From positions 20,143 to 44,142 of the forward strand of contig NZ_JBBMEU010000010.1 in NCBI RefSeq assembly GCF_040096415.1: a stretch of 24,000 nucleotides of DNA, given 5' to 3'. The DNA comes from Megasphaera intestinihominis (GTDB taxonomy: Bacteria > Bacillota > Negativicutes > Veillonellales > Megasphaeraceae). The notes beneath the pieces were generated by a model. That model did not search any database. It was given only the letters and a program-made list of their open reading frames with translations, and had not been told where the DNA came from. Below are positions 681 through 22,585 of this stretch, piece by piece (the stretch's first letter is position 1; each line of letters begins with the position of its first letter). The position numbers were made by a program, and so were the translations under genes.

Positions 681-2039
681 ATGCAGCGATTTTTATCTTA
701 TGAAAATACGATTTTAGCCGTCGTCATGATGGTATCTTTCATCAATCCTTTTACCAGCAGCGCCCTGACGACAGCCCTGCCTAGCATCGGTACGGCTTAT
801 GGTGCGACTGATGCTCAGCTCAGTTGGGTCATTGAGTTGTTCTTGATTTCTTCGACCGTGACCATCATGCCAATCAGCAAGATTGCCGACCGGATTGGCA
901 AGCGTCATATCTTTTTATTCGGCGTCTCCTTGTTCTGTGTCTCTTCGCTGGCCGTTTATTTTGTGAACTCCTTGTACGGTCTGTTCTTGCTGCGCATCCT
1001 GCAGGGGCTGGGCAGTGCCAGTATTTTCGCGACCAGCATGGCCATCGTATCCCTGGTCACGCCGCCACAGCGCCGCGGCCGGGCCATGGGCTTTACGATT
1101 GCCGCCGTATATTGCGGCCTGTCCTTTGGGCCTGTCCTGGGCGGCTTCTTTTCTTATTACTTAGGCTGGAAGACGATTTTTTATTTCATCGCCTTCATCT
1201 GTGCCCTGGCCTGGCTGATTGCAGCCCGCAGCATGACGAAGGAAGAATGGATCGTCAACGCGAAAGGCAGTCTCGATTTGCCTGGCAGTCTGTTGTATGC
1301 CCTGGCCATGATTGCCATTATGGTTGGCTTATCGGAAGTAATGACTCTGGCATACGCCAAATACCTCTTAGCTGCCGGTCTCCTCTTGTTCCTAGCTTTC
1401 TTATACGGTGAATGGCACCGGAAAAGCCCGGTCCTGCCAGTCCGTATTTTTGCAGGCAACCGCGTCTTCTCTTGTTCCAGTCTGGCGGCCATGCTCAATT
1501 ACTGCGCGACCTTCGGCATCAGTTTCCTCTTGTCCATTTACTTGCAGCGCATTACCGGCCTCAATGCCCGCGATACGGGGCTGGTTTTACTGATTCAGCC
1601 CGTACTGATGGCCCTCTTGTCCCCTGTCACCGGGGCCCTGTCGGACCGTATCAATCCAGCCGTCCTGGCTTCTTCCGGCATGATTTTGATTACCTTTGGC
1701 CTCTGTCTCTTAGCGGTGGATGTCTCTTACCCTTTTTTCTGGCTCATCGCCCTGGCCCTAGTCATCATCGGCATCGGCTTTGCCCTGTTCACGGCACCGA
1801 ATAACAATGCTATCATGGGGGCTGTGACGCCAAAATATTACGGCGCTGCCTCGTCTGTCGTCAGTACGGTCCGCCTCATCGGTCAGGTCCTCAGTGTGGC
1901 TATCATCACCCTGATTCTGTCGCAAAGCGGGGCCTCGGCTGCCTCGGATTGGCTGGCCCAGCACATCCAGCAGGCCTTCATCGTCTTTACGATTCTCTGT
2001 GCCATCGGCATCGTCCCTTCAGCTGCACGGAGTAAGTAG
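681..2039 (+). CDS. MFS transporter, drug/H+ antiporter-like
   Basis: 452-aa ORF with GGAGGG 9 nt upstream of the ATG. Hydrophobic multi-span protein. The loop ISKIADRIGKRHIFLFG resembles MFS motif A (G-x-x-x-D-R-x-G-R-K). Confidence 0.9.
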   Translation: MQRFLSYENTILAVVMMVSFINPFTSSALTTALPSIGTAYGATDAQLSWVIELFLISSTVTIMPISKIADRIGKRHIFLFGVSLFCVSSLAVYFVNSLYGLFLLRILQGLGSASIFATSMAIVSLVTPPQRRGRAMGFTIAAVYCGLSFGPVLGGFFSYYLGWKTIFYFIAFICALAWLIAARSMTKEEWIVNAKGSLDLPGSLLYALAMIAIMVGLSEVMTLAYAKYLLAAGLLLFLAFLYGEWHRKSPVLPVRIFAGNRVFSCSSLAAMLNYCATFGISFLLSIYLQRITGLNARDTGLVLLIQPVLMALLSPVTGALSDRINPAVLASSGMILITFGLCLLAVDVSYPFFWLIALALVIIGIGFALFTAPNNNAIMGAVTPKYYGAASSVVSTVRLIGQVLSVAIITLILSQSGASAASDWLAQHIQQAFIVFTILCAIGIVPSAARSK

Positions 2040-2068
2040 TGATTAGTAATTCGTGGTTCGTGGTTCGC
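2037..2068 (+). repeat. 7-nt-period array TAGTGAT TAGTAAT TCGTGGT TCGTGGT TCGC, starting at the MFS stop codon
   Basis: Read directly. The first unit contains the gene's TAG stop. Further TGA, TAG and TAA fall in the other frames. Confidence 0.65.
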
Positions 2069-2119: not shown

Positions 2120-2140
2120 TAGTTTTTAGTGAATGATTAA
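2120..2140 (+). repeat. Stop-bearing heptads TAGTTTT TAGTGAA TGATTAA
   Basis: Three consecutive 7-nt units, each starting with a stop codon, just 3' of the terminator. Confidence 0.5.
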
Positions 2141-3167: not shown

Positions 3168-4589
3168 CTAATGAGTAGCGGACTGAGGGCTGTGGACCTT
3201 CTTTTCCGCGGCTTCTTTTTCTTTATTAGCTTCGATTTCAGCCCACAACTTGTCGGCTGTCGGTTTCCACTGTACGGCATAAGCCTTGCATTTATTACAT
3301 AAGTGTTCTGCCGATTCCGGCGACTGCAGGTCCGTCGATTTGGCACCGCTGCGTTTGACCATGGCGGCTAAATACTGCGGATTTTCAAGCATCGGACACG
3401 GGCGCAGATGGTTGTGGTTGAAGGGCTGGCCTTTGGCATATTCTTTGAAGAGCGGCTGCTGCAAGCATGAGAGCAGGCTCTGATTGTTGATATTAGCGCT
3501 GGAATAATGGATGAAGACGCACGGTTCGACGTCGCCATTGGGGTTGATATGGCAGTAATTGCGGCCGCCAGCGACACAGCCGTCGATGAACTGGCCATCG
3601 TTCTGGAAATCGATGGCGAAAATCGGCTTGCCACCCTTTACGCTGCGGATTTCGCGGACCCGGCGTACCATATAGGCCCGCTGTTCTTCTGTCGGCAGCA
3701 GGTCCAGCGAGGCGTCGTTGCCGACGGGCATATAATGGAAGTACCACGTAAACCAGACGCCCTTCTTGATGAGCAGGTCCAGGAATTCGTCAGACGTGAC
3801 GGTGTCGATGTTTTTCCGGGTATAACAGATGGACGTCCCAAAAACGATGCCGTGCTTGCGCAGGAGGTCCATGGCGTGCATGACCTTGTCGAAATCGCCT
3901 TCGCCGCGGCGGCTGTCATTGACTTCACGGAATCCTTCGATACTGAGGGAGAAGCTGAGATTGCCTACGTCCGTGACTTCGTCGCAAAAAGCATCATCAA
4001 TGAGCGTACCGTTGGTAAAAGCGTGGAATTCACAGTCCGGGTGTTTCCGGCACAGACGCAGGATATCTTTCTTGCGCATGAGCGGTTCGCCGCCCGTGAG
4101 TAGGTAGAAATGACAGCCTAGAGCCTTGCCTTCGCGGACGATTTTATCCATGACGTCGAACGACAAGTTCAGCGTATGACCGTATTCAGCAGCCCAGCAG
4201 CCGATGCAATGCAGGTTGCAGGCGCTGGTCGGGTCGAAGAGGATGGCCCAGGGAATATTGCAGTGATATTTCGCCTTGGCGGCGTCGCGCGTACGCAGGC
4301 CGTAAAATCCAGCTTCAAAGCCCAGGTCCATGACGGCCGTCTTGACGACATGCGGGTTCAAGGTGTCCAGAGCCGTATTGAGGAAGCGGAACCATTTGCC
4401 CCCTTCATCGATGAGTCTGCGTGCATCGTCAAAGGATTCCTTTTCAAAGAGGTCGCCAAACAGATGCTGCATGACATAAGATAAGCATTTCAATGTTTTT
4501 TGACGGTCTGCCGGATTCCGTTCGGCCATGATGCGGTCGACCAGGATTTCGACAGCCTTCTTTTCGATACGATGGGTTAACTTGCTCAT
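3168..4589 (-). CDS. Radical SAM enzyme with a Cys-rich C-terminal (SPASM/twitch-like) region, function unknown
   Basis: CNLHCIGCW (CxxxCxxC) follows an N-terminal extension of about 110 aa. Later cysteines: CVAGGRNYCHINPNGDVEPC and RPCP. I use the second ATG (4589) because GGAG directly abuts the first ATG (4598). Confidence 0.85.
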   Translation of the reverse strand: MSKLTHRIEKKAVEILVDRIMAERNPADRQKTLKCLSYVMQHLFGDLFEKESFDDARRLIDEGGKWFRFLNTALDTLNPHVVKTAVMDLGFEAGFYGLRTRDAAKAKYHCNIPWAILFDPTSACNLHCIGCWAAEYGHTLNLSFDVMDKIVREGKALGCHFYLLTGGEPLMRKKDILRLCRKHPDCEFHAFTNGTLIDDAFCDEVTDVGNLSFSLSIEGFREVNDSRRGEGDFDKVMHAMDLLRKHGIVFGTSICYTRKNIDTVTSDEFLDLLIKKGVWFTWYFHYMPVGNDASLDLLPTEEQRAYMVRRVREIRSVKGGKPIFAIDFQNDGQFIDGCVAGGRNYCHINPNGDVEPCVFIHYSSANINNQSLLSCLQQPLFKEYAKGQPFNHNHLRPCPMLENPQYLAAMVKRSGAKSTDLQSPESAEHLCNKCKAYAVQWKPTADKLWAEIEANKEKEAAEKKVHSPQSATH

Positions 4590-4682: not shown

Positions 4683-4785
4683 AAAGTCAATATGAATTGG
4701 AAAACAAAAGACTTTTACTTTTTTAATGATATACTTTATAATATACTTGTATAATATTTATTTACACCATAAAGGGGAATTTTTT

Positions 4786-5982
4786 ATGGCTAAGAAAGAA
4801 AATAAGTTCAAGGGGTATGACATTTCGACACAGGCTGTACACACTGGTGCCGGCTATGACGCAGAAACGGGCGCTGTCCGCCGGCCATTGCACATGGCCA
4901 ACAGCTACAAGCTGCCCGATGATCTGTCGAAGGTCAACTATTCATCGACGGATTTGCTGATGTATGCCCGTAACGGCAACCCGAATCAACATTGGCTGGA
5001 AGAAAAAGTAGCGGCCCTTCATGGTGCCGATGACGCCATCGTCCTGGGAAGCGGCGTCGCCGCCCTTCACGCCCTGTTCTGGACCCTGCTCAAGACGGGC
5101 GACCGCGTCGTCTATCCGAAAGTCAGTTATATGGCAGTCTATCGCCTGTTCCACGAATTATTCAACCAGAAATTCGGCGTCGAAACGGTCATGGTCGATA
5201 TGACTGACCTGGAAGCCGTCAAGAAAGCGATTACGCCGGGGACGCGCCTAGTCCATATTGAAACGCCGGACAACCCGACTGATGGCATTTCAGATATCGA
5301 AGCCATCGCTAAAATCGCTCATGAAAACGAGGCTGTCTTGTCCGTCGACAATACCTTTGCGTCGCCTCTCAACCAGCGACCACTGGACCTGGGAGCCGAT
5401 TTCGTCGTCGAATCGCTGACGAAATATATCAACGGCCATGGCGATGCCCAGGGCGGGGCCATCATTTCCAATGATTTGGCAGCGATGGACCGGATCCGCT
5501 ATGAAGCCCAGGTCAACGTCGGCTCTGTCATCAGCCCCTTCAATACCTGGCAGATTTTCCGCGGTGCCGTGACCTTCCCCTTGCGGATGGAACGCATCAA
5601 CGCATCGACGCAGAAAATCGCCGAATGGCTGGAACAGCGGCAAAACGTCACCTTCGTTTCCTATCCCGGCCTGGCCAGCCATCCCGGTCATGAATTGGCC
5701 AAGAAACAGATGAAGCACGGCTTTGGCGGCGTCATTTCCTTTGGCATCGCAGCCGACGACAAGGCCGTCGAACGCTTCTGCGCAGCTTTGAAAGTCGTCA
5801 CCTTCGCCGTATCCCTCGGCCATGACGAAAGCCTGATTTTCCCGCAGCCCAGCTACGATGAACGCATCAATCTCTACCCGGAAAAATTCCGCAAGGGCTT
5901 CATCCGTTTCAGCATCGGCCTGGAAGACCCGGACGACATCATCGGTGACCTGGACCAGGCACTGAAAGCCATCGGCTTATAA
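4786..5982 (+). CDS. PLP-dependent enzyme of the Cys/Met-metabolism family (gamma-lyase / gamma-synthase / sulfhydrylase type), divergent member
   Basis: 398 aa from ATG 4786 with an AAAGGGGA RBS; the track start 4726 is upstream read-in. SLTKYINGHGD matches the PLP-lysine motif S-x-T-K-Y-x-x-G-H-x-D. The C-terminal block reads ESLIFPQPSYDE rather than the usual ESL..HPA.MTH, so substrate is uncertain. Confidence 0.85.
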   Translation: MAKKENKFKGYDISTQAVHTGAGYDAETGAVRRPLHMANSYKLPDDLSKVNYSSTDLLMYARNGNPNQHWLEEKVAALHGADDAIVLGSGVAALHALFWTLLKTGDRVVYPKVSYMAVYRLFHELFNQKFGVETVMVDMTDLEAVKKAITPGTRLVHIETPDNPTDGISDIEAIAKIAHENEAVLSVDNTFASPLNQRPLDLGADFVVESLTKYINGHGDAQGGAIISNDLAAMDRIRYEAQVNVGSVISPFNTWQIFRGAVTFPLRMERINASTQKIAEWLEQRQNVTFVSYPGLASHPGHELAKKQMKHGFGGVISFGIAADDKAVERFCAALKVVTFAVSLGHDESLIFPQPSYDERINLYPEKFRKGFIRFSIGLEDPDDIIGDLDQALKAIGL

Positions 5983-9739: not shown

Positions 9740-10947
9740 ATGCATATGCTACGTTATGGAAAAGGAACACTTCTCACTACGGTGATGGCCGGACTGCTGG
9801 CCCTGTCCCTGCTGACGGCAGGCTGCGGCAGCACGACACCGACTAAGAGTGCCGCTGTGTCGGTCAAGGCCATGAAAGTCCTCCAGCAGGATACGGCTGT
9901 GAGCCACGACTATTCGGGTCAGATCAAATCGACCAACGCCGTCACCATCAAGCCCCGCGTTTCCGGAGAAATCGTAGAGAAATACTTCACGGCTGGCGAT
10001 CCTGTTGAAAAGGGCCAGCCCTTGTATAAAATCGATGACCGCCAATATGAATCGGAAGTCCTCTCAGCCAAATCGAATGTCGACAAGGCCCGGACGACGC
10101 CAACAACTCCCTCGTCGACTTGAACCGTTATCAGCAGCTGGCAGCTTCCGGCGCCGTAGCCGAACAGACCCTGACCAACCAGCAGGCCACGGTGGACAGC
10201 AATCAGTCGAGTTACGACGATGCCAATACCCTCTTGCAGAAGGCCCAGGAAAACTTAGACGACACCATCATCAGGGCGCCTATTTCCGGCAAGCTCTCTG
10301 TGGACGACGTACCCAGCGGGACTTATGTCACGCCAGGCAACACGGCCCTGGTATCGGTAGGTTCGATCAATCCTATTTACGTCTAGTTCTCGATCAGTGA
10401 AAATGAATTCTTGAACTTCCGCATGGCCAATGACAATGAGCCGGAAGACCCTACGCCGCCGACGGCATCCCTGACTTTGAGCAACGGTAAGAAATACGAT
10501 GAAACGTCGACATCGTACCAGTTCGACCGGGAAGTGTCGGACAGTACCGGTACGATTACGGTCAAGGCTCTCTTCAATAATGCCGATGGCGTCCTCCTGC
10601 CGGGGATGTTCGCCCGTGTTACCATGGAAGGCCACCCCTTGAAGGATGCCATCCTCGTGCCTCAGCGTGCGGTCCAGCAGGTCCTGGACCAGTCCTTCGT
10701 CATCGTCGTCGGGAGCGATAATAAGTCCGTCGCCCGCGTCGTCACCTTAGGCGACCAGGTCGGCAGCTACTATATCGTCAAGAGCGGCCTCGATAAGGAC
10801 GATATCGTCGTCGTCGAAGGCCTGAGTAATCTGAAGGAAGGTCAGGACCTGGACGTCACCATGACCACGGCTGATGAATTGGGCCTGTCCCTGACGGCAT
10901 CCGATTCGTCGGCTTCGACTTCTTCCGTATCGCTTACGGCTAAATAA
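9740..10947 (+). pseudogene. RND efflux periplasmic adaptor (AcrA/MexA-type lipoprotein), broken by one frameshift and one in-frame TAG
   Basis: Lipobox LLTAGCGS. The three track ORFs (9740-10123, 10120-10386, 10411-10947) join into one adaptor. The frame changes near 10088-10096 (...SNVDKAR / DDANNSLVDLNRYQQL...). TAG at 10384-10386 interrupts the conserved NPIYV-x-FSISENEF block in frame. Confidence 0.85.
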
Positions 10948-10958
10948 GGAGGCGCGTC

Positions 10959-13900
10959 ATGTCTAGTTTCTTCATCCGACGGCCTATTTTCGCCATCGTC
11001 ATTTCCATCATCATCGTCATCCTGGGGGGCCTGTCCCTCCTGTCCCTGCCTATTGCCCAGTATCCGCAGATTTCGCCGCCGACGGTCAATCTGAGTACGA
11101 CCTACACCGGTGCCAATGCGACCATCGTCAATCAGACCGTCGCCCAGGTCATCGAAGACCAGCTCAAAGGCGTCGATGATATGTCCTATATGTCCTCGAC
11201 GTCGAGCAACGACGGTTCGTACAGCCTGTCCGTCGTCTTCAGCCTGGACAGTGACGGCAATACAGATGCCATCAACGTCCAGAACGACGCCAATCTGGCC
11301 AAGAACAGCCTGCCCAGCGACGTACAGACCCAGGGCCTGACCGTCCGCAGAGCCTCTGGCGACATGGTCCTCATGGCTAACATCTATTCGCCGAACGGGA
11401 CGTATAACCAGGCGTTCCTCAAGAATTATGCCGATATTTACCTGCTTGACAAAATCCAGCGCATCGACGGCGTCGGCAGTGTCAATACCTTCGGTTCCAG
11501 CTATGCCATGCGCGTCTGGCTCAATCCGGAAAAACTGGCCGAACGCGGCCTGACCGTATCGGACGTCATTGCGGCCATCAAGGAACAGAATATGTCGGCT
11601 CCGGCCGGGACCATTGGCAGCCTGCCGGCACCGGCGACACAGGAAAAACAGTACAGCGCCAAAGTCGAAGGCCAGCTGTCGACGCCGGAACAATTCGGCA
11701 ATATCATCTTGAAGTCTACCTCGAATGGCCAGTTCGTCTACCTCAAAGATGTGGCCAATATCCAGACGGGGACGCAGAACGAAAGCAGCAACTCCAAAAT
11801 CAACGGCAAGACTCAACGGCAAGACAGGGATTGGCTTCGGCATCCAGCTTTCCAGCGACGCCAACGCCCTGGACACGATTACGGAAGTCAAGAAGGTCCT
11901 GGAACAGGCCAAGGAAACCTTCCCGCCGGACCTGGATTATACCATTGTCATGGATAACACGAATTTCATCAACGCATCCATCAACGAAGTCAAAGATACC
12001 TTTGTCGAATCGCTGCTCCTGGTCATCCTCGTCGTCTTCGTCTTCCTGCAGAAATGGCGGACGACGCTCATCCCGGTCCTGGCCGTGCCGGTTTCTATCG
12101 TCGGGACCTTTGCGTCCTTTAAGGTCCTCGATTTCACCATCAACACCCTGACCCTTTTCGCCATGGTCCTGGCCATCGGCCTGGTCGTCGACGACGCCAT
12201 CGTCGTCATCGAAAACGTCGAAGAGCATATGTCCAAGGATAAACTGTCGGCCAAGGACGCGACGGAAGCGGCCATGAAAGAAGTCCAAGGGCCGATTATC
12301 GCCACGACTGCTGTCTTGGCCTCGATTTTCATCCCTGTCGCCTTCATCGGCGGCGTCACGGGCGTCCTCTACAAGCAGTTCGCTGTGACCATCACCATTT
12401 CCGTCGTCATCTCGGCTTTCGTCGCCCTGACCTTGACGCCGGCCTTATGCGGTGTTCTCCTGAAGCCCGATGATAAGGCCATCCAGGCCGGGCCGCTGGG
12501 TGCCTTCTTCCGCGGGTTCAACCGGGTTTTCGATCATTTCAAGGACCGCTACACGGGGAAAGTCGGCTGGATGATCCGTCATCTGAAATATGCCGCTGTC
12601 TTCCTCATCCTGGTCACGGGCCTTATGGGCATCTGCTACAAAGTTCTGCCGTCGACGTTCGTCCCCGACGAAGACCAGGGCGTGTTTATGGCCAGTATCA
12701 CCATGCCCGAAGGGAGAATCGATTATCGCCAAGTTCAATAAGACTGTCGTTCCCAACCATCCCGAAGCCCGCGTAGCGGCTTTCAATCTGGCATCCCTCC
12801 CCGGCATGGGCCAGGAAGGCGGCTGGACCATGCAGCTCATGGATAATACGGGCCTGTCCGATACGGAACTGGGCAATGCGGCCAACCAGGTCGTCGCCGC
12901 CTGCTCGCAGCGGCCGGAATTATCCGGTGTCCGCACGAGCTATGCCACCAATACACCGAGCGTGGCCTATACGGTAGACCGTGAAAAAATCAAGAATCTG
13001 GGCATCGAATTGTCCGACGTCTTCACGGCGCTCCAGACCAATTTCGGCGGTTCGTCGGTCAATGACTTCACCCAGTTCGGCCGGTCGTACAAGGTCATCG
13101 TCCAGGCCGACACGTCGTATCGCTCTCAGGCAGACAGTCTGAAATTCATTTCCGTCAAGTCGTCGTCTGGGAAAATGGTTCCCCTCGATACGCTGCTGAC
13201 CAGCTCCATGACCACCGGCCCGTCGTCGATCACCCGTTTCAACGGCGTCCGCAGCGTCACCATCCAGGGCAGCGCCGCCAGCGGCTACAGTTCCGGTGAA
13301 GCCATGGCAGCGGCCGAAGAAGCGGCCAAGAGCGTCATTCCGACGGGGATGACCATCGAATGGTCCGGCCAGAGCCGCGAAGAAAGCACGTCGTCCAGTT
13401 CGACGACGAAAATCCTGCTCATGGCCCTGGTCTTCGCCTTCCTCTGCCTGGCTGCCCTCTATGAAAGCTGGTCCATGCCGTTCGCCGTCCTGTTCACCGT
13501 ACCGACGGGGATTTTCGGGGCTGTCGGCTCGGAATACATCATCCGCCAGCTGGCGACCTTGTTCAACGCCAATGCCAGCGGCTTCTTGAACAGCGTCTAC
13601 ATGCAGATTGGCGTCATCATGATCATCGGCCTGGCGGCCAAGAACGCCATCCTCATCGTCGAATTCGCCAAAGAGCGTGTCGACAAGGGTATCGACCCGA
13701 TGGAAGCTGTCGTCATCGCCTCCAAGCTTCGCCTGCGGCCAATCCTCATGACGGCCTTTACGGCCATCATCGGCTGCCTGCCTCTGGCCTTTGCCAGCGG
13801 TGCCGGCGCCGGAGCCCGCTGCGGCATGGGCGTCGCCGTCGTCGGCGGCATGACCTTTGCCACCCTCTGCGGCCTGCTCCTCATCCTGGCGTTCTACATC

Positions 13901-13984
13901 ATTTCCGAAAAAATGGCCCGCAGCTTCTGGAAAGCCACAGGCCTGAAACGAATCAAATTCAAACACCGCATGTTGAGGCGGTGA
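10959..13984 (+). pseudogene. RND inner-membrane pump (AcrB/MexB family), broken by a 13-bp tandem duplication and an internal deletion with frameshift
   Basis: GGAGG RBS. N-terminus MSSFFIRRPIFAIVISIIIV. Family blocks FVPDEDQG, LCLAALYESWS, AKNAILIVEFA and RLRPILMT lie in three different frames (track ORFs 10959-11957, 11725-12741, 12590-13984). Confidence 0.9.
11800..11825 (+). repeat. Exact tandem duplication TCAACGGCAAGAC x2 inside the RND pump gene
   Basis: Copies at 11800-11812 and 11813-11825 are identical. Removing one copy restores ...SKINGKTGIGFGIQLSSDANALD... across the two ORF fragments. Confidence 0.9.
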
Positions 13985-14019: not shown

Positions 14020-14020
14020 A

Positions 14021-14055
14021 AGTGGTTAGTAGCTAGTGGTTAGCGGATGGTAGAA
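14021..14055 (+). repeat. 7-nt-period array AGTGGTT AGTAGCT AGTGGTT AGCGGAT GGTAGAA
   Basis: TAG at 14027, 14034 and 14041, spaced 7 nt, so one falls in each reading frame. Sits immediately 3' of the terminator. Confidence 0.65.
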
Positions 14056-14075
14056 ACCTTCACGCGACGCCATCC

Positions 14076-15101: not shown

Positions 15102-15284
15102 ATGTATTTGCTTATCGATAATTACGATTCTTTTACGTATAATTTGGCCGATTTAGTGGCGGAAACGGGATGCGACGTACAGGTCTGCCGCTGCGACCAG
15201 ATTGGGCGGAATGAGATTGCCGCTTTGAACCCGCAGGGACTGATTATTTCGCCTGGGCTGAAACGTATCTCAAAGCCTATTTGA
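15102..15284 (+). pseudogene. pabA: pabA/trpG-type glutamine amidotransferase, N-terminal fragment only (about 52 family-like residues)
   Basis: MYLLIDNYDSFTYNLADLVAETGCDVQVCRCDQIGRNEIAALNPQGLIISPG matches the N-terminus of class-I amidotransferase component II. It then runs into LKRISKPI-stop. The catalytic Cys-His-Glu region is absent. Confidence 0.75.
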
Positions 15285-16444
15285 AAAAGCATTACCAGGC
15301 CAATCAGACCGCCCTGCCCTTGACAGCTGGGGCCATCGGCTATGTCAGCTATGACTACGGCCTGGCACTCCATGGGATGAAATCCCGCCACGCCCCTGCC
15401 TTTCCCCTGCCTGATATGAAGTGGGTCTTTTACGATTTCTTCATCATCGAACACCGGCAAAGCCACGCCGTATGGTTTGCTGCCAATGGCCAGACGATGC
15501 CGGCCGAAGCCCTGCTAGCACAGATGGAAGAGAAAATCCGGACTCGCCTTCAGGAAAAAACGCTCCCGCATACTGACGAAAATAGCCAATATGCCTTAAC
15601 CGTCCAAGCCGACAGCACGCCGGAAACCTATGGAAAGGCTTTACAAAAACTCCGAGATTATCTCTTTGCCGGCGATGTCTATGTGACGAATTTCACCAGC
15701 ACCTTAACCGTCCAGAGCCACTGCCCGCCGTACACCTTCTTTTCCCGTCTGCGCCGGGACAATCCGTCCCCTTTCGGGGCTTATTTACAATATGGCTCTT
15801 ATCAAATCATCAGTGCTTCCATGGAACGGCTGCTGTGCCTGCGCCATGACCAGATTGAAACGCGTCCCATCAAGGGCACACGGCGCCGCGGCAAGACGCC
15901 TGCTGAAGATGAAAAGCTGCGACAGGAACTGGCTCAATCGCAAAAAGACCAGAGTGAATTACTGATGATCGTCGATTTGGAGCGCAATGACCTGCACAAA
16001 ATCAGCCAGCCTGGCAGCGTTTCGGTTCCGACGCTGTTTGCCATCGAGCCATATGCCACGGTTTTCCATTTAGTCGCCGATGTAACAGGGACCCTGCGGC
16101 CTGGGCAGACAGCCATTGATGCCTTGATGGCCCTCTTTCCAGGCGGCTCCATTACGGGTGCACCGAAGCGGCGGGCTATGGAAATCATCGACGAATTAGA
16201 ATTCAGCTGGCGCCAGCTTTATACCGGAACGATTGGCTACCTGTCTTTAGATGGGAACTGTGACTTAAACATTGTCATACGGACGGCCGTCCACTACGAT
16301 GACCGATATACCATAGGCGTAGGCGGTGGTATTACGGCCGAATCGGACGTACATTTCGAATACGAAGAAATCTGGCAAAAAGCCAAAGCCTTGCTCAGCG
16401 CATTGAAAGGAGATGTTTTTGATTATGAATCTTATCTTAGATGA
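15257..16444 (+). pseudogene. pabB: Aminodeoxychorismate synthase component I lacking its N-terminal ~95 residues, out of frame with the pabA fragment
   Basis: Chorismate-binding blocks PIKGTRRRG, LMIVDLERND, FPGGSITGAPK and IRTA are present. Family similarity starts at ...ETYLKAYLKKHYQANQTALPLTAGAIGYVSYDYG. No SD-preceded start. The track start is a TTG (15281) overlapping the pabA' stop (TTGA). Confidence 0.7.
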
Positions 16445-17216
16445 TGGCTCCCAATTCGGATTGGGAGCTTTTGAAACCATTCCCGTCTATCAGGGTCGGC
16501 CAGTCTGGCTGGAGGCTCATGAAAGGCGTTTACGACATACGTTGGAATATTTAGGGATTGACCTTCCTTTTGATTGGGAAAATTATTTATGGGAGTATGT
16601 GTATGGTATGGATGGGGAGGATTGGGTGTTAAAAATACTCGCTTCCGATAAAAATATAAATTTTACATCCCGTGCCAATCCTTATGCATCTATGGCCGAC
16701 CGTCCAGGTTATGTCATCGCCCTGTCGTCCATTCGCCACAATGAAACGTCCCCACTGGTACGGCATAAGACCTTTAATTATGGCGACTCGATCTTAGCCA
16801 AACGGCAGGCCCGGGCCGAAGGTATTGACGAACCGATTTTCTGCAATATGCAGGGCCAATTGACAGAAGGCGCTGTCAGCAATCTCTTTTTCATCAAAAA
16901 CGGGCGGCTCTATACGCCGCCCGTCGAAGCCGGATTATTGCCAGGCATCATCCGGTCTTATCTCTGTCAATGTTATGATGTCATCGAAAAGCCCTTGTAT
17001 CCGGAAGATATCCGGACTTTCGACGAGTGTTTCCTGACGAACTCCCTCATGGGACTCATGCCGGTCCGCCGCTTTGGCACCGTCGCTTTTCCCGTATCCT
17101 CAGAGACGCAGACGGCTGCCTTATTCCGCCGTTATGAAGCAGACAAAAGCCTGTCCTTCCCACTCTCTATAAGACGAGCTGGTGAAAGACCTGGCCGTCC
17201 ATGTCCTTCCAGGTGA
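16425..17216 (+). CDS. pabC: Aminodeoxychorismate lyase (class IV aminotransferase fold)
   Basis: Overlaps the pabB end. Fold-type IV motifs: FETIPVY, HKTFNY (Lys) and EGAVSNLFF. Start is ambiguous among 16413, 16419 (TTG) and 16425. The 3' end overlaps the convergent yfcE-like gene by 50 nt. Confidence 0.75.
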   Translation: MNLILDDGSQFGLGAFETIPVYQGRPVWLEAHERRLRHTLEYLGIDLPFDWENYLWEYVYGMDGEDWVLKILASDKNINFTSRANPYASMADRPGYVIALSSIRHNETSPLVRHKTFNYGDSILAKRQARAEGIDEPIFCNMQGQLTEGAVSNLFFIKNGRLYTPPVEAGLLPGIIRSYLCQCYDVIEKPLYPEDIRTFDECFLTNSLMGLMPVRRFGTVAFPVSSETQTAALFRRYEADKSLSFPLSIRRAGERPGRPCPSR

Positions 17217-17712
17217 AGGTGTCCCCGTCCCAGAGGAGATAGCTGTGCGGGCTGTTTTCCTTAGGAAGCGACGTCGAGCCGGGATTCAAGTAATAGTTAT
17301 CCTGGCCGAAGGGCTGCCAGACCGGGACGTGCGTATGGCCGTGGAGCAGGATGTCGCCAGGCTGCATGGGCGGCAGGGATGCCAGATTGTAGCGGTCGCC
17401 ATGAGTCGCATAGACGAGGCGGCTGCCCTGGGTCAGGATGGCATAGGTGGCCATGATGGGAAATTCCAGGACCATCTGGTCCACGTCGGCATCACAGTTC
17501 CCGCGGACACAGAGGATGGCCTCTTTGACTGCGTTGAGCATGGCAAAGACTTCCTTCGGCGCATAGTCCTTGGGCAGGTCGTTGCGCGGTCCGTGATAGA
17601 GGATATCGCCGAGCAGGACCAGGCGGTCAGCCCCTTCCCGCTTCCAGGCGTCGAGCATACGGCGGCAGTAATAAGCCGAGCCGTGGATATCTGAAGCAAT
17701 GAAGAATTTCAT
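17167..17712 (-). CDS. yfcE: YfcE-type metallophosphoesterase (MJ0936 family)
   Basis: 181 aa. ASDIHGS, LGDILYHGPRN, VRGNCD and HGHTH match my recollection of E. coli YfcE along the whole length. Confidence 0.85.
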   Translation of the reverse strand: MKFFIASDIHGSAYYCRRMLDAWKREGADRLVLLGDILYHGPRNDLPKDYAPKEVFAMLNAVKEAILCVRGNCDADVDQMVLEFPIMATYAILTQGSRLVYATHGDRYNLASLPPMQPGDILLHGHTHVPVWQPFGQDNYYLNPGSTSLPKENSPHSYLLWDGDTFTWKDMDGQVFHQLVL

Positions 17713-18822
17713 TTATTTCGCCCCTTTCTTGGCATCGATGGCGGCAAAGACCGTACAGTAGTTGCCTTCCGGCGTCCGGCATTTCGAGCAGTGGACACAG
17801 CGGGCCGGCCGCAAATCGCCCTGGTTCCAGCGGCGGACCAAACCCGGTTCCGATAATAAGGGCCGGCTCAGGCCGATACCGGCCAGTTTCGATGTCTTCA
17901 AGGCCGTTTCCATCTGCCGCGGGTCCTTGAAGCCGCCCGTTACATAGACAGGGACGCGTACGGCGTCGGCTATGTCTTTGGCATAATCGAGGAAATATCC
18001 GCCGTCGCGGATGACGTGGCCATCCCATTCCAGGCCGATTTCCTGCTGGGCCTTGCCGTGGATATTGCCGCTCACTTCGATGGCGTCGATACCAGACTGC
18101 TGCAGGCGCCGGCAGATATCCAGCGAATCTTCAAAGGTCAGGCCGCCTTCAAAGAAATCGGAACAGGTAATCTTGATCCAGATGGGGAAATGCGGGCCCG
18201 CTGCCTGACGGATAGCCGCGATGATATCGCCGACGATACGGTAGCGATTGGCCGGCGAACCGCCATAGGCATCGCAGCGCCGGTTGTAATAGGGACTGAG
18301 GAACTGATTGAGCAGGTACGAATGGCCGCCGTGGATTTCGACAGCATCGAATCCGCTGTCGCGGACGCGCTTGGCCGCCTGGGCATATTCGCCGATGAGG
18401 TGCTGGATATCGGCCGGACTCATGGCGACACCGACAGTCCCGGTCTTTCGTTCCGGCACGGCTGACGGCGAAAAGATAGTCCGCCCTTCCCGCTCAAAGG
18501 TCGTCTTGGTCCCGCCATAGGCGATCTGCATCATGATCTTCGCCCCATAGGCATGGACGCGCCGGGTTAACTCCTGATACTGCGGGATAAAGGCATCGTC
18601 ATAAATGCCCATCATGCCGGCGTTGGGCCGGTCTTCCCCATCGACGCGGGCATAGCCCGTACAGATCAGGCCCACTTCGTTCTTGGCCAGCTGGTCGTAG
18701 ATGCGGTACTGTTTTTCCGACATATAACCCTTGGCATCGGCCAAGGCTTCCCACGTCGCACTGCGGAGGATGCGATTGCGCACGGGCATCCCGGCGATGA
18801 CGGCATGTTCCAATAATTTCAT
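17713..18822 (-). CDS. NADH:flavin oxidoreductase (Old Yellow Enzyme family) with a C-terminal Cys cluster
   Basis: 369 aa. TIM-barrel OYE blocks GFDAVEIHGGHSYLLNQFLSP and NRRCDAYGGS. C-terminal CVHCSKC...C. Its stop codon abuts the yfcE ATG, so the two form an operon. Confidence 0.85.
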   Translation of the reverse strand: MKLLEHAVIAGMPVRNRILRSATWEALADAKGYMSEKQYRIYDQLAKNEVGLICTGYARVDGEDRPNAGMMGIYDDAFIPQYQELTRRVHAYGAKIMMQIAYGGTKTTFEREGRTIFSPSAVPERKTGTVGVAMSPADIQHLIGEYAQAAKRVRDSGFDAVEIHGGHSYLLNQFLSPYYNRRCDAYGGSPANRYRIVGDIIAAIRQAAGPHFPIWIKITCSDFFEGGLTFEDSLDICRRLQQSGIDAIEVSGNIHGKAQQEIGLEWDGHVIRDGGYFLDYAKDIADAVRVPVYVTGGFKDPRQMETALKTSKLAGIGLSRPLLSEPGLVRRWNQGDLRPARCVHCSKCRTPEGNYCTVFAAIDAKKGAK

Positions 18823-18854
18823 ATATATAATCCCCCTTTTTTATCGATTAGTTA

Positions 18855-18882
18855 GCCACTAGCCACTAGCCACTAGCCACTA
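18855..18882 (-). repeat. Perfect tandem array (TAGTGGC)x4, GCCACTA on the plus strand
   Basis: Four identical 7-nt units. The CTAG palindrome at each junction gives TAG in all three frames on both strands. The array continues as TAACTAA TCGATAA toward the OYE RBS. Confidence 0.9.
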
Positions 18883-18886
18883 ATCC

Positions 18887-18915
18887 AGTATACGAATTTT
18901 TTGCTGAAACTGCAA
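18887..18915 (-). promoter_or_regulatory. Promoter TTGCAG-17 nt-TATACT for the OYE-yfcE operon
   Basis: Minus strand -35 at 18910-18915 and -10 at 18887-18892. The predicted start near 18880 puts the heptad array at the 5' end of the transcript. Confidence 0.45.
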
Positions 18916-18938
18916 GGCTGAAGGCTTCACGGTATCTT

Positions 18939-20411
18939 TCATCCTTCCAGCGAACGGACAACCACAGCCAGCTGACTGACAGCCTGGCGGAATTCTTCCG
19001 GCGTCGTATGGGCATAGGACAGGCGCAGAGACTGGGTGTGGCGGCTGGAATAGATATCGCCGGGATTGATGAGGACGCCAGCCGATACGGCTTTGCGGAA
19101 GAGCAGTTCCATGGGAAGTCTGCTGCGGAAGGTAAGCCAAATATAAAAACCGCCCTGCGGCACCTGCCAGTCTGCCATGTCCGCAAAGACTTCGGACAAG
19201 GACTGACAGGCTGCCTGGCAGCGCCGCTGCAATTCACAGCGCAGCCCATCCAGATACTGTTCATAACGGCCGCTGGTCAAGAACCGGGCCAAGACTTGCT
19301 GGGACAGGGAGCTGGCGCCATAGTCGATCTGCATCTTGACGTCGCCCAAACGCTGTACGACCGGTTCCGGCGCTATCATCCAGCCGATGCGCAGCCCGGG
19401 CGCCAAAGATTTGGAAACACTCCCCAAATAGAGGACCCGGCCGCCAGGGTCCAGGCTTTTCAGAGATGGCGGCGGCGTTCCGTCAAAGGTCAGTTCTTCA
19501 TATGCCCCGTCTTCAATGATGGGCAGGTCATAGCGGCTGCATAATTCCAGGAGCTGGATGCGGCGTCGGCGGCTTAGGGTCCGGCCTGTCGGATTGTGGT
19601 TCGTCGGGATGGTATAGAGGACGCTGTTGCCCCTATCTGAAGACTGGCGCAAGTGCTTTTCCAGGGCTTCCAGCGACAGGCCCTGGTCGTCCATGGGCAG
19701 GCCGCAGAGGCGAAGATGGGCAGACTGGAAGACCTGGAGCGATTTGACATACGTCGGGTCTTCGACGTAAACCGTCGCCCCGCCGCGGAGAAGCCCTGCC
19801 GATATGAGCTGGAGCCCCTGTAGGGCGCCAGACGTAATCAGGATGGACGACGGCGCCACGATTGAATTCCGCTTTCTGGCATACCCAGCCAGAGCCTGAC
19901 GCAGGGCGGGCATCCCCAACGGCTCGACATAGCCCAGGGAGGTAATGGCATCGGCCACATCCCGCAAAGTCTGGCGGAAGGCATCCTGCGGGAACAGCCT
20001 GGGGTCCAGTTCGCCCGTACCGAGACGGACCAGGCGGTCATCGAACTCCAGGGTATTGATGGCCTGGACGACTTCCTGATTGGCCCGGAAATAGCCAGCC
20101 GTCATGTAACGGTTCCAATCCGGCTGAACCGGCAGGCGCAGGGACCAGGCCGTACTGGCTACGACCGTCCCCTGGCTGCCCCGGCCCTGGAGTACGCCCG
20201 CTTCCAATAGCGGCTTCAGAGCCTGGTTCAGAGTACTCCAGTTCACCTGGAAATGCCGGGCCATCTCGCGCTGAGACGGCAGGCGCGTCCCGGCCGGCCA
20301 TTCACCGCTTTCCATTTTTCCATACATCCATTCGAGGATTTGCCGGTATACGGGCACGGCCTGCGCCGGGTCGGGATGCCATTCGATTTGCACGGGAATA
20401 TGCCGCTTCAT
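18939..20411 (-). CDS. MocR/GabR-type regulator (GntR winged-helix domain fused to an aminotransferase-fold domain)
   Basis: 490 aa from ATG 20411, with AAAGGAGA 7 nt upstream. N-terminal GntR motif LPSQREMARHFQVNWSTLNQAL. A long fold-type-I aminotransferase-like C-terminal domain. Confidence 0.88.
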   Translation of the reverse strand: MKRHIPVQIEWHPDPAQAVPVYRQILEWMYGKMESGEWPAGTRLPSQREMARHFQVNWSTLNQALKPLLEAGVLQGRGSQGTVVASTAWSLRLPVQPDWNRYMTAGYFRANQEVVQAINTLEFDDRLVRLGTGELDPRLFPQDAFRQTLRDVADAITSLGYVEPLGMPALRQALAGYARKRNSIVAPSSILITSGALQGLQLISAGLLRGGATVYVEDPTYVKSLQVFQSAHLRLCGLPMDDQGLSLEALEKHLRQSSDRGNSVLYTIPTNHNPTGRTLSRRRRIQLLELCSRYDLPIIEDGAYEELTFDGTPPPSLKSLDPGGRVLYLGSVSKSLAPGLRIGWMIAPEPVVQRLGDVKMQIDYGASSLSQQVLARFLTSGRYEQYLDGLRCELQRRCQAACQSLSEVFADMADWQVPQGGFYIWLTFRSRLPMELLFRKAVSAGVLINPGDIYSSRHTQSLRLSYAHTTPEEFRQAVSQLAVVVRSLEG

Positions 20412-20425
20412 CACATCGTCTCCTT

Positions 20426-20522
20426 TTTGGTTGGTATAATTCACATCGCTTTGGCTGGCTGGAATCCGGCATAGCTCTGTTATACTGTGATTATACCATA
20501 CGAACCAACTTTCTTTGGTTGG
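20426..20522. promoter_or_regulatory. Divergent control region: three TTTGGYTGG direct repeats and an inverted pair of TGGTATAAT boxes containing ATACCA
   Basis: TTTGGTTGG at 20426-20434, TTTGGCTGG at 20450-20458, TTTGGTTGG at 20514-20522. TGGTATAAT on plus at 20432-20440 and on minus at 20490-20498. TGTTATACT on plus at 20478-20486. Confidence 0.5.
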
Positions 20523-20541
20523 AAAAGAAGGAGGCTTTTTT

Positions 20542-21153
20542 ATGTTCTTTTTCCAAGGCCTGACCATGGGACTGGCTTACGTCGCTCCCATTGGCATGCA
20601 GAATCTCTTCGTCATCCATTCAGCGTTATCCCATTCCCTGCGCCGCACCGTCGTGACAGCGCTCATCGTCTTGTTCTTCGACATCAGTCTGTCGCTGAGC
20701 TGTTTTTACGGCATCGGCAGCCTGCTGGATCATCTTCCCTGGCTCAAAGCGGTCATTCTGGGCGCAGGTACGCTGCTCATCCTCTACATGGCCTATGGCA
20801 TGATTCGCCAGGTACCGGATGCGCTGACCCTTAAAGGTCAGCCGGCCTCTCTGGGCCAGACCGTTTCCAAAGCCTGTATCGTCACCTGGATGAAACCTCA
20901 GGCCATTTTAGACGGCACGATGCTCCTCGGCGCCTTCCGCATCACCCTGCCTGCCGCCGAAGCCACGACCTTCCTGACCGGTGTCCTCCTGGCATCGGGC
21001 CTGTGGTTCCTCTCGCTCACGGGCTGCGTCGCCGCCTTCCGCCACGCCATGACACCCCGCATCCTGCGCACCATCAACGTCCTCTGCGGCACCGTCCTCA
21101 TGCTGTACGGCCTCCATTTAGGCTATACCTTCGTGCAGTTCTTTCAAATCTGA
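20542..21153 (+). CDS. LysE/ArgO-family amino-acid exporter
   Basis: 203 aa from ATG 20542, with GAAGGAGG 7 nt upstream. N-terminus FFQGLTMGLAYVAPIGMQNLFV parallels E. coli ArgO ([22 protein letters not shown]) as I recall it. Confidence 0.85.
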   Translation: MFFFQGLTMGLAYVAPIGMQNLFVIHSALSHSLRRTVVTALIVLFFDISLSLSCFYGIGSLLDHLPWLKAVILGAGTLLILYMAYGMIRQVPDALTLKGQPASLGQTVSKACIVTWMKPQAILDGTMLLGAFRITLPAAEATTFLTGVLLASGLWFLSLTGCVAAFRHAMTPRILRTINVLCGTVLMLYGLHLGYTFVQFFQI

Positions 21154-22402: not shown

Positions 22403-22460
22403 ATGCTTATCCCCTTCAACATAAATTAGCCAGCAGGCAAAGCCCTGCCAGCCAATTTAC

Positions 22461-22469: not shown

Positions 22470-22500
22470 TATGTCATCATGCGTAGTCACTTTTACTTTA

Positions 22501-22528
22501 TAGTTTGAAGCACAGAGTTTGTAGTTTA
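22501..22528 (+). repeat. 7-nt-period array TAGTTTG AAGCACA GAGTTTG TAGTTTA
   Basis: [T/G]AGTTTG units at 22501, 22515 and 22522. Related to the 2113-2126 and 2161-2188 units. Confidence 0.45.
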
Positions 22529-22557
22529 CAGAGAAACCTTTTAAATTTAAAACCATT

Positions 22558-22585
22558 CGCTAACTGCTAACCGCTGACTGCTAAA
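22558..22585 (-). repeat. 7-nt-period array CGCTAAC TGCTAAC CGCTGAC TGCTAAA (minus strand: TTAGCAG TCAGCGG TTAGCAG TTAGCG)
   Basis: Plus-strand stops TAA 22561, TAA 22568, TGA 22575 and TAA 22582, spaced 7 nt, so every frame is covered. TAG occurs on the minus strand. Abuts the TerC terminator. Confidence 0.65.

What the first reader, a model, noticed from the sequence alone, without database searches (positions are those of the whole stretch)
18846..18886. Perfect (TAGTGGC)x4 array giving stop codons in all six frames, at the 5' end of the OYE-yfcE transcript
Four identical 7-nt units run from 18855 to 18882. Because 7 is not a multiple of 3, successive TAGs fall in frames 1, 2 and 3. Each junction is the palindrome CTAG, so the plus strand also has TAG in all three frames (18860, 18867, 18874). 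CTAG is generally among the rarest tetranucleotides in bacterial genomes, so four copies in 28 nt is unlikely to be neutral. The array lies between a plausible promoter (TTGCAG-17-TATACT) and the RBS, so it should be transcribed as a 5' UTR. It is the cleanest member of a family seen at three other sites here. Possible roles are a translation insulator, a protein or RNA binding array, or a slippage-prone contingency tract. I know of no described element of this kind.
Basis: partly seen in the sequence, partly recalled or inferred. Interest (0 to 1): 0.7.

Follow-up and report, generated by a model that had tools for sequence, protein, structure and literature searches.

The report
Variable 7-base repeat before OYE gene
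The four-copy TAGTGGC run is a real, strain-variable microsatellite (2 to at least 8 copies) between the promoter and the ribosome-binding site of a flavin oxidoreductase operon in the gut bacterium Megasphaera. It is a new example of a known kind of bacterial repeat, not a new kind of element.

Summary
(TAGTGGC)x4 sits at 18882->18855 on the minus strand with stop codons in all six frames. It has three CTAG, not four.

It is a heptanucleotide simple-sequence repeat (VNTR). In 32 sequences of this locus from one Megasphaera elsdenii-group species the copy number is 2, 3, 4, 5, 7 or 8, and the flanks stay conserved. M. elsdenii MSK.21.52 has 6 copies. Two sister species have none, yet keep the -35, -10 and Shine-Dalgarno sequences. 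The array is therefore a dispensable, slippage-prone insert in the OYE-yfcE leader.

As sense RNA it is predicted to pair with itself through G.U wobble. The hairpin lengthens with copy number (-10.6 to -39.9 kcal/mol) and leaves the ribosome site open. The closest studied analogue is the Haemophilus hmw1A (ATCTTTC)n 5'-UTR repeat.

It belongs to a Megasphaera-wide set of T(A/C)GTGGY heptamer arrays beside terminators: 16 in 218 kb, against 0 in shuffles. Units with TCG, which carry no stop, are mixed in. Stop-free control heptamers are also common in phage contigs. Six-frame stops are therefore probably incidental, and the "translation insulator" reading is not supported.

Any effect on expression is untested. 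Verdict: new member of a known kind, moderate interest.

The parts
18855..18882 (-). (TAGTGGC)x4 perfect heptanucleotide SSR. This is the variable tract, with 2 to 8 or more units in other strains.
   Evidence: TRF; sequence; allele series.
18910..18915 (-). Candidate -35 hexamer TTGCAG.
   Evidence: CTTGC.GTT is invariant in 7 Megasphaera sequences, even where the upstream DNA differs. It is below the consensus-scan threshold. No transcript data.
18887..18892 (-). Candidate -10 hexamer TATACT, 17 nt after the -35 and 4 nt before the array.
   Evidence: CGTATACT is invariant in alignment A1. The start of transcription is inferred to fall at about the first repeat unit.
18843..18854 (-). 3' flank TAACTAATCGAT. 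Its ACTAATC is complementary to the GATTAGT formed by the 5' flank plus the first unit.
   Evidence: Folds. The flank pair changes G-C to G.U to A-U between haplotypes.
18831..18838 (-). Shine-Dalgarno AAGGGGGA, 8 nt upstream of the ATG at 18822.
   Evidence: Invariant. Predicted unpaired fraction is about 0.54 at any copy number.
17713..18822 (-). OYE-family NADH:flavin oxidoreductase gene, first gene of the operon.
   Evidence: Pfam PF00724, E 1.5e-55.
17167..17712 (-). YfcE-like metallophosphoesterase gene. It starts directly after the OYE stop, so it is probably co-transcribed.
   Evidence: Pfam PF12850, E 5e-18; coordinates.
18939..20567 (-). Upstream MocR-type GntR/aminotransferase regulator gene. 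Its TGA stop lies 56 nt before the array.
   Evidence: Pfam PF00392 + PF00155. In strains L003, L005 and L006 a 520-bp segment with a divergent Sel1-like gene separates it from the promoter.
14020..14046 (+). Family member A: AAGTGGT TAGTAGC TAGTGGT TAGCGG, directly after a bidirectional terminator.
   Evidence: Nearly invariant among strains.
22559..22584 (-). Family member B: TAGCAGT CAGCGGT TAGCAGT TAGCGA after the TerC terminator, followed by ATGG-TTTTAAATTTAAA.
   Evidence: 16 of 21 strain copies are identical.
2037..2068 (+). Family member D: TAGTGAT TAGTAAT TCGTGGT TCGTGGT TCGC. It starts with the stop codon of the MFS gene and ends at a terminator.

Best explanation
The array is a hypervariable heptanucleotide simple-sequence repeat (a VNTR). 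It expands and contracts by strand slippage. It sits in the leader of the OYE-yfcE operon of a Megasphaera elsdenii-group bacterium, starting 4 nt after the -10 hexamer, which is at or next to the transcription start.

Shown:
- The units are perfect, and the copy number is 2, 3, 4, 5, 7 or 8 among strains of one species. A second species has 6. Two sister species have 0 and keep the same promoter and ribosome-binding site.
- Imperfect sister arrays in the same strains are almost invariant.

Inferred:
- The array is transcribed as the 5' end of the mRNA.
- In that RNA, GCUAGU pairs with itself (G.U, C-G, U-A, A-U, G-C, U.G). The tract therefore folds into one long interrupted hairpin that gains about 5 kcal/mol per added unit and does not mask the Shine-Dalgarno sequence.
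- The most likely consequence is a heritable, copy-number-dependent change in mRNA stability or processing: an expression rheostat of the kind shown for Haemophilus hmw1A. It is not a stop-codon barrier.
- The six-frame stops are a by-product of the unit sequence.

The array is one member of a genus-wide set of T(A/C)GTGGY heptamer arrays that flank terminators.
For: - Perfect array.
- Alleles, 32 sequences: n=2 x15, n=3 x1, n=4 x3, n=5 x2, n=7 x6, n=8 x5, on three flank haplotypes. Four contigs end inside the tract.
- Other genomes: M. elsdenii MSK.21.52 has n=6 and UMGS1114 has TAGTGGT TAGTGGC. Megasphaera sp. WILCCON 0056 and MGYG-HGUT-00612 have no array but keep TTGCAG-17-TATACT and the SD.
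- The operon has its own promoter: in L003, L005 and L006 the upstream gene is divergent.
- Imperfect arrays A and B are stable in the same strains.
- Folding: sense RNA gives -10.6 (n=2), -20.9 (n=4, z -4.0) and -39.9 kcal/mol (n=8, z -5.4). Antisense gives -8.4. The array-less leader gives z +0.75. SD and AUG accessibility is unchanged for n=0-12.
- The basal flank pair covaries G-C, G.U, A-U.
- Family: period 7 dominates the tandem repeats in 134 kb of Megasphaera-like DNA (GC 0.47-0.55, not taxonomically confirmed), with 24 arrays against 2-12 for any other period. There are 16 strict arrays in 218 kb against 0 in shuffles.
- Precedent: the hmw1A heptamer SSR is transcribed in the 5'-UTR, forms a hairpin cut by RNase III, and expression is inversely proportional to copy number (PMC12721329).
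Against: - There are no transcript data. The start site is predicted only. If transcription starts 7 nt after TATACT, the left flank of the hairpin base is not in the RNA.
- The -35 hexamer matches the consensus in only 3 of 6 positions.
- The downstream genes are a flavin oxidoreductase and a phosphoesterase. These are not the surface or restriction functions usual for contingency loci.
- The commonest allele is only 2 units. Allele size follows lineage (2/4/5, 7/8 and 3-8 on the three haplotypes), as expected for neutral drift.
- Sister species do without the array.
- Greater stability of the G/U-rich strand is inherent to any such sequence, so it is not evidence of selection.
- Covariation rests on a single pair, and a symmetric protein site would explain it equally well.
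Confidence: 0.55

Rival explanations
1. Neutral microsatellite. The tract is slippage-generated junk that is tolerated because it lies in non-coding DNA, and copy number has no effect on OYE-yfcE expression.
For: - It is absent from two sister species with an intact promoter and SD.
- Allele sizes track haplotype.
- Heptamers are the commonest long-SSR class in prokaryotes generally (Mrazek et al. 2007, as summarised in PMC4679880).
- Predicted SD accessibility is unaffected by copy number.
- The genes are housekeeping-type.
Against: - It lies exactly between -10 and SD, where leader length and structure usually matter.
- The predicted 5' hairpin reaches about -40 kcal/mol at n=8.
- A heptamer SSR in the same position is functional in hmw1A (PMC12721329).
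Confidence: 0.33
2. Six-frame translation insulator. The array exists to stop ribosomes in every frame on both strands between two transcription units.
For: - TAG occurs at period 7 on both strands.
- Any-stop runs at period 7 are enriched in the window: 9 against 2.3 +/- 1.5.
- TAGYGGY arrays (93 stretches) far outnumber the stop-free ATGYGGY (6) and GTAYGGY (12) in viral contigs.
Against: - The upstream gene has its own TGA 56 nt earlier.
- Family arrays mix in stop-free TCGTGGY units, and some are entirely TCG.
- Stop-free TTGYGGY (81 stretches) and TCGYGGY (51) are also common. Counting non-coding arrays only gives TAG 104, TTG 59 and TCG 24.
- Sister species lack the array.
Confidence: 0.04
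3. Protein-binding array or split operator. Either the heptads are tandem sites for a regulator, as ToxR/H-NS use the ctxAB TTTTGAT heptads. Or the flanking inverted repeat GATTAGT...ACTAATC is a dimer operator over the start site, whose half-site spacing is reset by slippage.
For: - The array overlaps the predicted start site.
- The flank half-sites change symmetrically between haplotypes, G/C to A/T.
- Heptad repeats are used this way in V. cholerae (bioRxiv 10.1101/2021.05.14.444153, abstract seen).
Against: - No candidate binding protein was identified.
- The neighbouring MocR gene is paired divergently with a LysE exporter gene. It is separated from the array by another gene in some strains.
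- The flanks are not conserved in L105 or L107.
- An intermediate haplotype is asymmetric.
Confidence: 0.06
4. Fragment of a dispersed REP/BIME-like or mobile intergenic element. On this reading it is not an SSR that arose locally, and it was brought in by recombination or transposition.
For: - Similar arrays form conserved mosaics with terminator hairpins, TAGCGGATGG and TTTAAATTTAAA at many loci.
- They sit beside IS1182 copies.
Against: - The OYE array lacks the mosaic's hallmark ends and has no adjacent terminator hairpin.
- The IS1182 boundaries are GGGGCTGTCGCAC...GTGCGACAGCCCC, and the flanks differ between copies, so the arrays are not part of the IS.
- Length variation is in whole perfect units, which is the signature of slippage.
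Confidence: 0.1

Closest known systems
Haemophilus influenzae hmw1A/hmw2A (ATCTTTC)n 5'-UTR simple-sequence repeat (PMC12721329)
   Same: - 7-nt unit, perfect tandem copies, strain-variable number.
- Located between the promoter and the start codon.
- The repeat takes part in a long 5'-UTR hairpin whose size depends on copy number.
   Different: - Unrelated unit sequence and unrelated organism (Negativicutes, not Pasteurellaceae).
- The hmw hairpin pairs the repeats with a separate G-rich arm, whereas here the repeat is predicted to pair with itself.
- hmw alleles have at least 11 copies, against 2-8 here.
- The regulated gene there is an adhesin, not a metabolic enzyme.
- RNase III dependence and an expression effect are untested here.
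TAACTGA intergenic direct repeats of marine Beggiatoaceae, cyanobacteria and Bacteroidetes (PMC4679880)
   Same: - Heptamer direct repeats, 2-6 or more copies, overwhelmingly intergenic.
- The forward orientation gives stops in all three frames.
- Many loci per genome.
   Different: - Different unit.
- TAACTGA sets lie within a few nt of start codons that mostly lack an SD. Here a strong SD follows 16 nt after the array.
- TAACTGA relatives are rarely repeated, whereas Megasphaera arrays mix several related units.
GGGNATC heptameric repeats of Xanthomonas and Nostoc (PMC4692102) and cyanobacterial STRR heptamers (from my own knowledge)
   Same: - Genome-wide, non-coding, G-rich heptamer arrays of 2 to 26 units.
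- Enriched within about 50 bp of stop codons or upstream of ORFs, between co-oriented genes.
- Transcribed.
   Different: - Those repeats carry GGG tracts and form G-quadruplexes, with a preference for four units.
- TAGTGGC has only GG doublets, and the alleles here show no preference for four.
Long simple sequence repeats (5-11 nt units) of prokaryotes, Mrazek et al. 2007, as summarised in PMC4679880
   Same: Heptanucleotide units are the most abundant class. They are intergenic and generated by polymerase slippage.
   Different: This is a general category only. It assigns no function.
E. coli REP/BIME mosaics (from my own knowledge)
   Same: For the wider Megasphaera family: dispersed intergenic mosaics next to gene ends and terminators. 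They are potential RNA hairpins and are targets for specific IS insertion.
   Different: REPs are imperfect palindromes of about 35 nt, not tandem heptamers. The OYE array itself is not in such a mosaic.

Membership tests
Prokaryotic heptanucleotide SSR / VNTR | Head-to-tail perfect copies of a 5-11 nt unit | tested here: met
   TRF: period 7, 4.3 copies, 100% matches.
Prokaryotic heptanucleotide SSR / VNTR | Copy number differs between strains in whole units while the flanks are conserved | tested here: met
   n = 2, 3, 4, 5, 7, 8 in 32 sequences; n = 6 in M. elsdenii MSK.21.52.
Prokaryotic heptanucleotide SSR / VNTR | Purity predicts instability: imperfect arrays are stable | tested here: met
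   Arrays A and B are identical in 10/11 and 16/21 strain copies.
hmw-type 5'-UTR SSR expression switch | The repeat is transcribed as part of the 5'-UTR | tested here: inconclusive
   It lies between the conserved -10 and the SD. The start site is predicted only, with no RNA data.
hmw-type 5'-UTR SSR expression switch | The repeat forms a stable 5'-UTR hairpin | tested here: met
   In silico only: -20.9 kcal/mol, z -4.0 (n=4); -39.9, z -5.4 (n=8).
hmw-type 5'-UTR SSR expression switch | Expression varies with copy number; RNase III processing | not testable with these tools
   Needs reporter fusions and an rnc mutant.
hmw-type 5'-UTR SSR expression switch | Sequence homology (ATCTTTC unit, hmw locus) | tested here: not met
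   The unit is TAGTGGC and the downstream gene is PF00724. It is an analogue, not a member.
TAACTGA repeat family | Unit TAACTGA, directly abutting start codons that lack an SD | tested here: not met
   Different unit. 32 nt, including a strong SD, separate the array from the ATG.
G-quadruplex heptamer repeats (GGGNATC) | Four or more G-tracts of at least 3 G; preference for four units | tested here: not met
   Only GG doublets. Alleles peak at 2 and at 7-8.
MITE / IS-derived element | Terminal inverted repeats plus target duplication, with the same flanked unit at other sites | tested here: not met
   The 7-nt flank complementarity is not found elsewhere in the DNA held. The IS1182 ends are different and exclude the arrays.
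Rfam RNA families | Match to a curated covariance model | tested here: not met
   No hit at gathering threshold in the window. None at E<=1 in 18780-18960.
CRISPR array | Repeats separated by unique spacers | tested here: not met
   The units are contiguous.

The most novel reading that the evidence does not exclude
The OYE tract is the expandable end-member of an undescribed, Megasphaera-wide REP/BIME-like system, with relatives in very diverse phage contigs. In this system T(A/C)GTGGY heptamer arrays, palindromic 'CTGTCGCA' terminators and TTTAAATTTAAA/CAAACTN modules form intergenic mosaics. These would act as wobble-paired RNA hairpins, as mRNA end-protectors or processing sites. At the OYE leader, slippage would turn such a module into a heritable expression rheostat.
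Probability: 0.2. Interest if true: 0.7.

Novelty: new member of a known kind. Interest (0 to 1): 0.42.

Why it matters
- SSR-driven heritable variation is well studied in host-adapted pathogens such as Haemophilus, Neisseria and Campylobacter. It is hardly studied in abundant gut commensals.
- Here a common human-gut Negativicute carries a clean, highly polymorphic 7-mer tract at a promoter-proximal site. The alleles can be read directly from metagenomes.
- If copy number tunes OYE-yfcE expression, this would be a simple model for non-surface, metabolic 'rheostat' loci in commensals.
- The tract is also a ready strain-typing marker for Megasphaera.
- The surrounding heptamer/terminator mosaics, and an IS1182 element that lands in terminator palindromes, suggest an unexplored repeat system in this genus.

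Tried and rejected
- Rfam, at gathering threshold and at E<=1: no family.
- Operator for the adjacent MocR regulator: rejected. The regulator is paired with a divergent LysE gene, is separated from the array by another gene in some strains, and the array is absent in sister species.
- Six-frame-stop selection. The first viral-contig controls looked supportive: TAG 93 against ATG 6 and GTA 12. Further controls overturned this: TCG 51 and TTG 81, with non-coding arrays only giving TAG 104, TTG 59 and TCG 24. Megasphaera arrays also mix TCG units.
- Array as part of IS1182 or a MITE: rejected from the IS boundaries and differing flanks.
- Chi-like (GCTAGTGG, AGCGG) arrays for RecBCD/AddAB. This was my own idea from memory. 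The four arrays in the window lie 2 on the + strand and 2 on the -, so they are not co-oriented. I did not pursue it.
- General terminator association of TAGYGGY arrays in phage contigs: only 3 of 108 have a perfect-stem terminator within 70 nt and 10 of 108 an inverted partner. The terminator link is therefore a Megasphaera trait.
- Orientation bias of family arrays relative to the upstream gene: about 11 sense to 4 antisense by my manual reading of the output, or 13 to 6 with a looser set. Not significant.
- Attempts to sample more of the genome. I wrongly took window ORF 4726-5982 for a multi-copy TnpB. It is a PLP enzyme and is not on record. P0001 gave only a 2.3-kb contig. P0002 worked.
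- Host assignment of phage contigs L098 and L046: only weak tape-measure and capsid similarities.
- Literature search for the array strings: primers only.

Full report
**1. The observation**

On the minus strand the window reads TATACT GGAT (TAGTGGC)x4 TAACTAATCGATAAAAAAGGGGGATTATATAT ATG. TRF scores it as period 7, 4.3 copies, 100% identity, at 18853-18882. TAG recurs four times at 7-nt spacing on each strand, so all six frames are closed.

Runs of at least 3 TAG at period 7 occur 3 times in the window. Dinucleotide shuffles expect 0.04, and other periods give none. CTAG is depleted 3.5-fold in the window, 14 against 49.

The array lies in the 116-nt gap between two minus-strand genes. Upstream is a MocR-type GntR/aminotransferase gene (18939-20567). 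Downstream is an OYE-family flavin oxidoreductase gene (17713-18822), which is followed without a gap by a YfcE-like phosphoesterase gene.

**2. Organism**

Exact look-up of the OYE protein found it in thousands of gut-metagenome blocks. It also found a 2.33-Mb complete genome, CP181255.1. A scan of one genome per species placed the closest relatives (94-97% amino-acid identity) in Megasphaera, including M. elsdenii MSK.21.52.

**3. It is a variable-number repeat**

I compared the window, ten contigs that encode the identical OYE protein, and 21 metagenome contigs found with the 3' flank as anchor. In these 32 sequences the TAGTGGC count is 2 (15 sequences), 3 (1), 4 (3), 5 (2), 7 (6) or 8 (5). 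The units are always perfect and the flanks conserved. Four contigs break inside the tract.

The alleles fall on three flank haplotypes (2/4/5, 7/8 and 3/5/7/8). Length has therefore changed repeatedly, but it also tracks lineage.

The imperfect sister arrays at 14020-14046 and 22559-22584 are almost invariant in the same strains. This is the classic dependence of SSR instability on purity.

**4. It sits in a conserved leader but is dispensable**

- M. elsdenii MSK.21.52 has six units.
- An uncultured Megasphaera genome (UMGS1114) has TAGTGGT TAGTGGC.
- Two further species have no array at all.
- All of them keep CTTGC.GTT, a 17-nt spacer, CGTATACT and AAA.GGGGGAT.
- In strains L003, L005 and L006 a divergent Sel1-like gene lies upstream, so the operon must have its own promoter there.

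The hexamers match the consensus too weakly for the scanner, but they are phylogenetically footprinted. The array begins 4 nt after the -10 hexamer, which is at about the predicted start site. No RNA data are available.

**5. Predicted RNA behaviour**

GCUAGU is self-complementary when G.U pairs are allowed. The sense leader folds into a single interrupted hairpin:

| Sequence | Energy (kcal/mol) | z-score |
|---|---|---|
| Sense, n=2 | -10.6 | -2.4 |
| Sense, n=4 | -20.9 | -4.0 |
| Sense, n=8 | -39.9 | -5.4 |
| Antisense, n=4 | -8.4 | -2.5 |
| Array-less leader of a sister species | -3.1 | +0.75 |

Predicted accessibility of the Shine-Dalgarno sequence and the AUG does not change from n=0 to n=12.

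The pair at the base of the hairpin reads G-C, G.U or A-U in the three haplotypes. This is a single covariation, and a symmetric protein site would explain it equally well. If transcription starts 7 nt after TATACT, that basal pair is not in the RNA.

**6. The family**

In the window, related arrays adjoin terminators at three sites:
- 2037-2068: TAGTGAT TAGTAAT TCGTGGT TCGTGGT
- 14020-14046
- 22559-22584

I sampled 134 kb of further Megasphaera-like DNA (GC 0.47-0.55; taxonomy not confirmed) through a related IS1182 transposase. There, period 7 dominates the tandem repeats: 24 arrays, against 2-12 for any other period.

A strict search for at least 3 units of T[AC]G[TC][GA]G[CT] finds 16 arrays in 218 kb and none in shuffles. 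All are intergenic. Most lie within about 60 nt after a stop codon or beside a terminator, and some form inverted pairs around it. Units with TCG, which carry no stop codon, are freely mixed with TAG units.

Recurrent neighbours, each seen at several separate loci, suggest dispersed mosaics rather than only local slippage:
- TAGCGGATGG
- TTTAAATTTAAA
- CAAACTN heptamers
- the string TTTTTGAGTATTAAGTTTGYAGTTTGTAG

Orientation relative to the upstream gene is about 11 sense to 4 antisense. This is my manual reading of the gene tables, and it is not significant.

**7. Are six-frame stops selected?**

TAGYGGY x3 occurs in 93 stretches of phage-derived contigs with GC from 37% to 71%. Two stop-free permutations are rare: ATGYGGY 6 and GTAYGGY 12. 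That looked supportive at first.

Two other stop-free units are common, however: TCGYGGY 51 and TTGYGGY 81. After removing arrays that lie inside long open frames, the counts are:

| Unit | Non-coding arrays |
|---|---|
| TAG | 104 |
| TTG | 59 |
| TCG | 24 |
| ATG | 5 |
| GTA | 6 |

Stops are therefore not the discriminating feature. Together with the mixed TCG/TAG arrays, the upstream gene's own stop codon and the array-less sister species, this makes the insulator reading unlikely.

**8. Comparison with known systems**

- Heptanucleotide SSRs are the most abundant long-SSR class in prokaryotes (Mrazek et al. 2007, as summarised in PMC4679880).
- TAACTGA arrays give stops in all three frames and lie upstream of start codons (PMC4679880).
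- GGGNATC arrays in Xanthomonas and Nostoc cluster near stops and starts and form G-quadruplexes (PMC4692102).
- The ctxAB TTTTGAT heptads bind regulators (bioRxiv 10.1101/2021.05.14.444153).
- The H. influenzae hmw1A (ATCTTTC)n tract is transcribed in the 5'-UTR and forms a hairpin cut by RNase III. It sets expression inversely to copy number (PMC12721329).

The present tract works most like the last of these, but it is not homologous to any of them. No paper in the library contains these array strings, and none links such repeats to Megasphaera.

**9. Verdict**

It is partly wrong: the kind of element is not undescribed, and the insulator role is not supported.

The best explanation is a slippage-driven VNTR in the operon leader whose RNA hairpin length, and possibly mRNA fate, scales with copy number.
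- That it is a VNTR: about 0.9.
- That it lies in the transcribed leader: about 0.7.
- That it has a real effect on expression: about 0.35.

A purely neutral microsatellite is the main rival.

Noticed in passing
L291-L300 (e.g. L292 9507-11800); L001 15590-17900; L005 3400-5700; L292 about 3405-3440: An IS1182-family element has ends GGGGCTGTCGCAC...GTGCGACAGCCCC. In nearly every copy it lies between an A-run and a T-run, exactly where an intrinsic-terminator hairpin would be. L292 about 3405-3440 holds the perfect palindrome AAAAGGGGCTGTCGCATGTGCGACAGCCCCTTTT, which looks like an empty target or a joined-ends footprint. Many resident terminators share the CTGTCGCA core. This suggests terminator-targeted insertion, or terminators derived from IS ends.
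   Followed up: partly
window 22490-22584; L109 4693-4782 and 11568-11617; L293 6828-6871; L292 13964-14010; L296 9410-9499: A recurrent intergenic mosaic: terminator hairpin, T-run, (TAGYNGY)n, TAGCGGATGG, (C/T)TTTAAATTTAAA, then CAAACTN heptamers. It occurs at several unrelated loci and resembles REP/BIME in organisation.
   Followed up: partly
window 2100-2136; L104 1723-1765; L107 7541; L292 11810-11845; L294 8507-8542: A near-identical 35-40-nt string, TTTTTGAGTAYTMAGTTTGYAGTTTGTAGTTTTTAGTGAA, directly follows a terminator at five separate loci.
   Followed up: no
L001 15470-15550, compared with the empty site in L007 14820-14850 and window 14047-14060: A 77-bp insertion flanked by a GATGG direct repeat. 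It contains TTTTAAATTTAAA and TTCAAAC-type heptamers. It is present in the strain that also carries the IS1182 copy there, and it looks MITE-like.
   Followed up: no
L011-L103 (e.g. L059, L019, L043, L089, L098, L100): TAGTGGT, TAGTGGC and TAGCGGT arrays of 3-11 units occur in 93 phage-derived contigs with GC from 37% to 71%. They are often surrounded by degenerate relatives (TTAGTGA, TTAGAGG, TTAGGGG, TCAGTGG) and sometimes form inverted pairs. Hosts are unknown.
   Followed up: partly
L003/L005/L006 9324-9770, compared with window 18916-18925: A 520-bp segment with a divergent Sel1-like small gene lies between the MocR gene and the OYE promoter in some strains. It is cleanly absent in the window lineage, at the junction GCCTTCA|GC.
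   Followed up: partly
window 22408-22450 (- strand): A conserved stem-loop, TTGGCTGGCAGGGCTTTGCCTGCTGGCTAA, lies between a TACAAT -10 box and the SD of the thiaminase-I-domain/solute-binding gene. It has no Rfam match and is a possible attenuator or unknown leader.
   Followed up: no
window 9740-13984 and 15122-16444; L002-L010 equivalents: The RND efflux, MFP and pabA/pabB-like genes are split into different fragments in different strains, and several IS types are nearby. Pseudogenisation in this region looks ongoing.
   Followed up: no
L275, L277, L281, L282: Four of the 21 metagenome contigs end inside the TAGTGGC tract. This is consistent with longer alleles or with mixed allele lengths within samples.
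   Followed up: no
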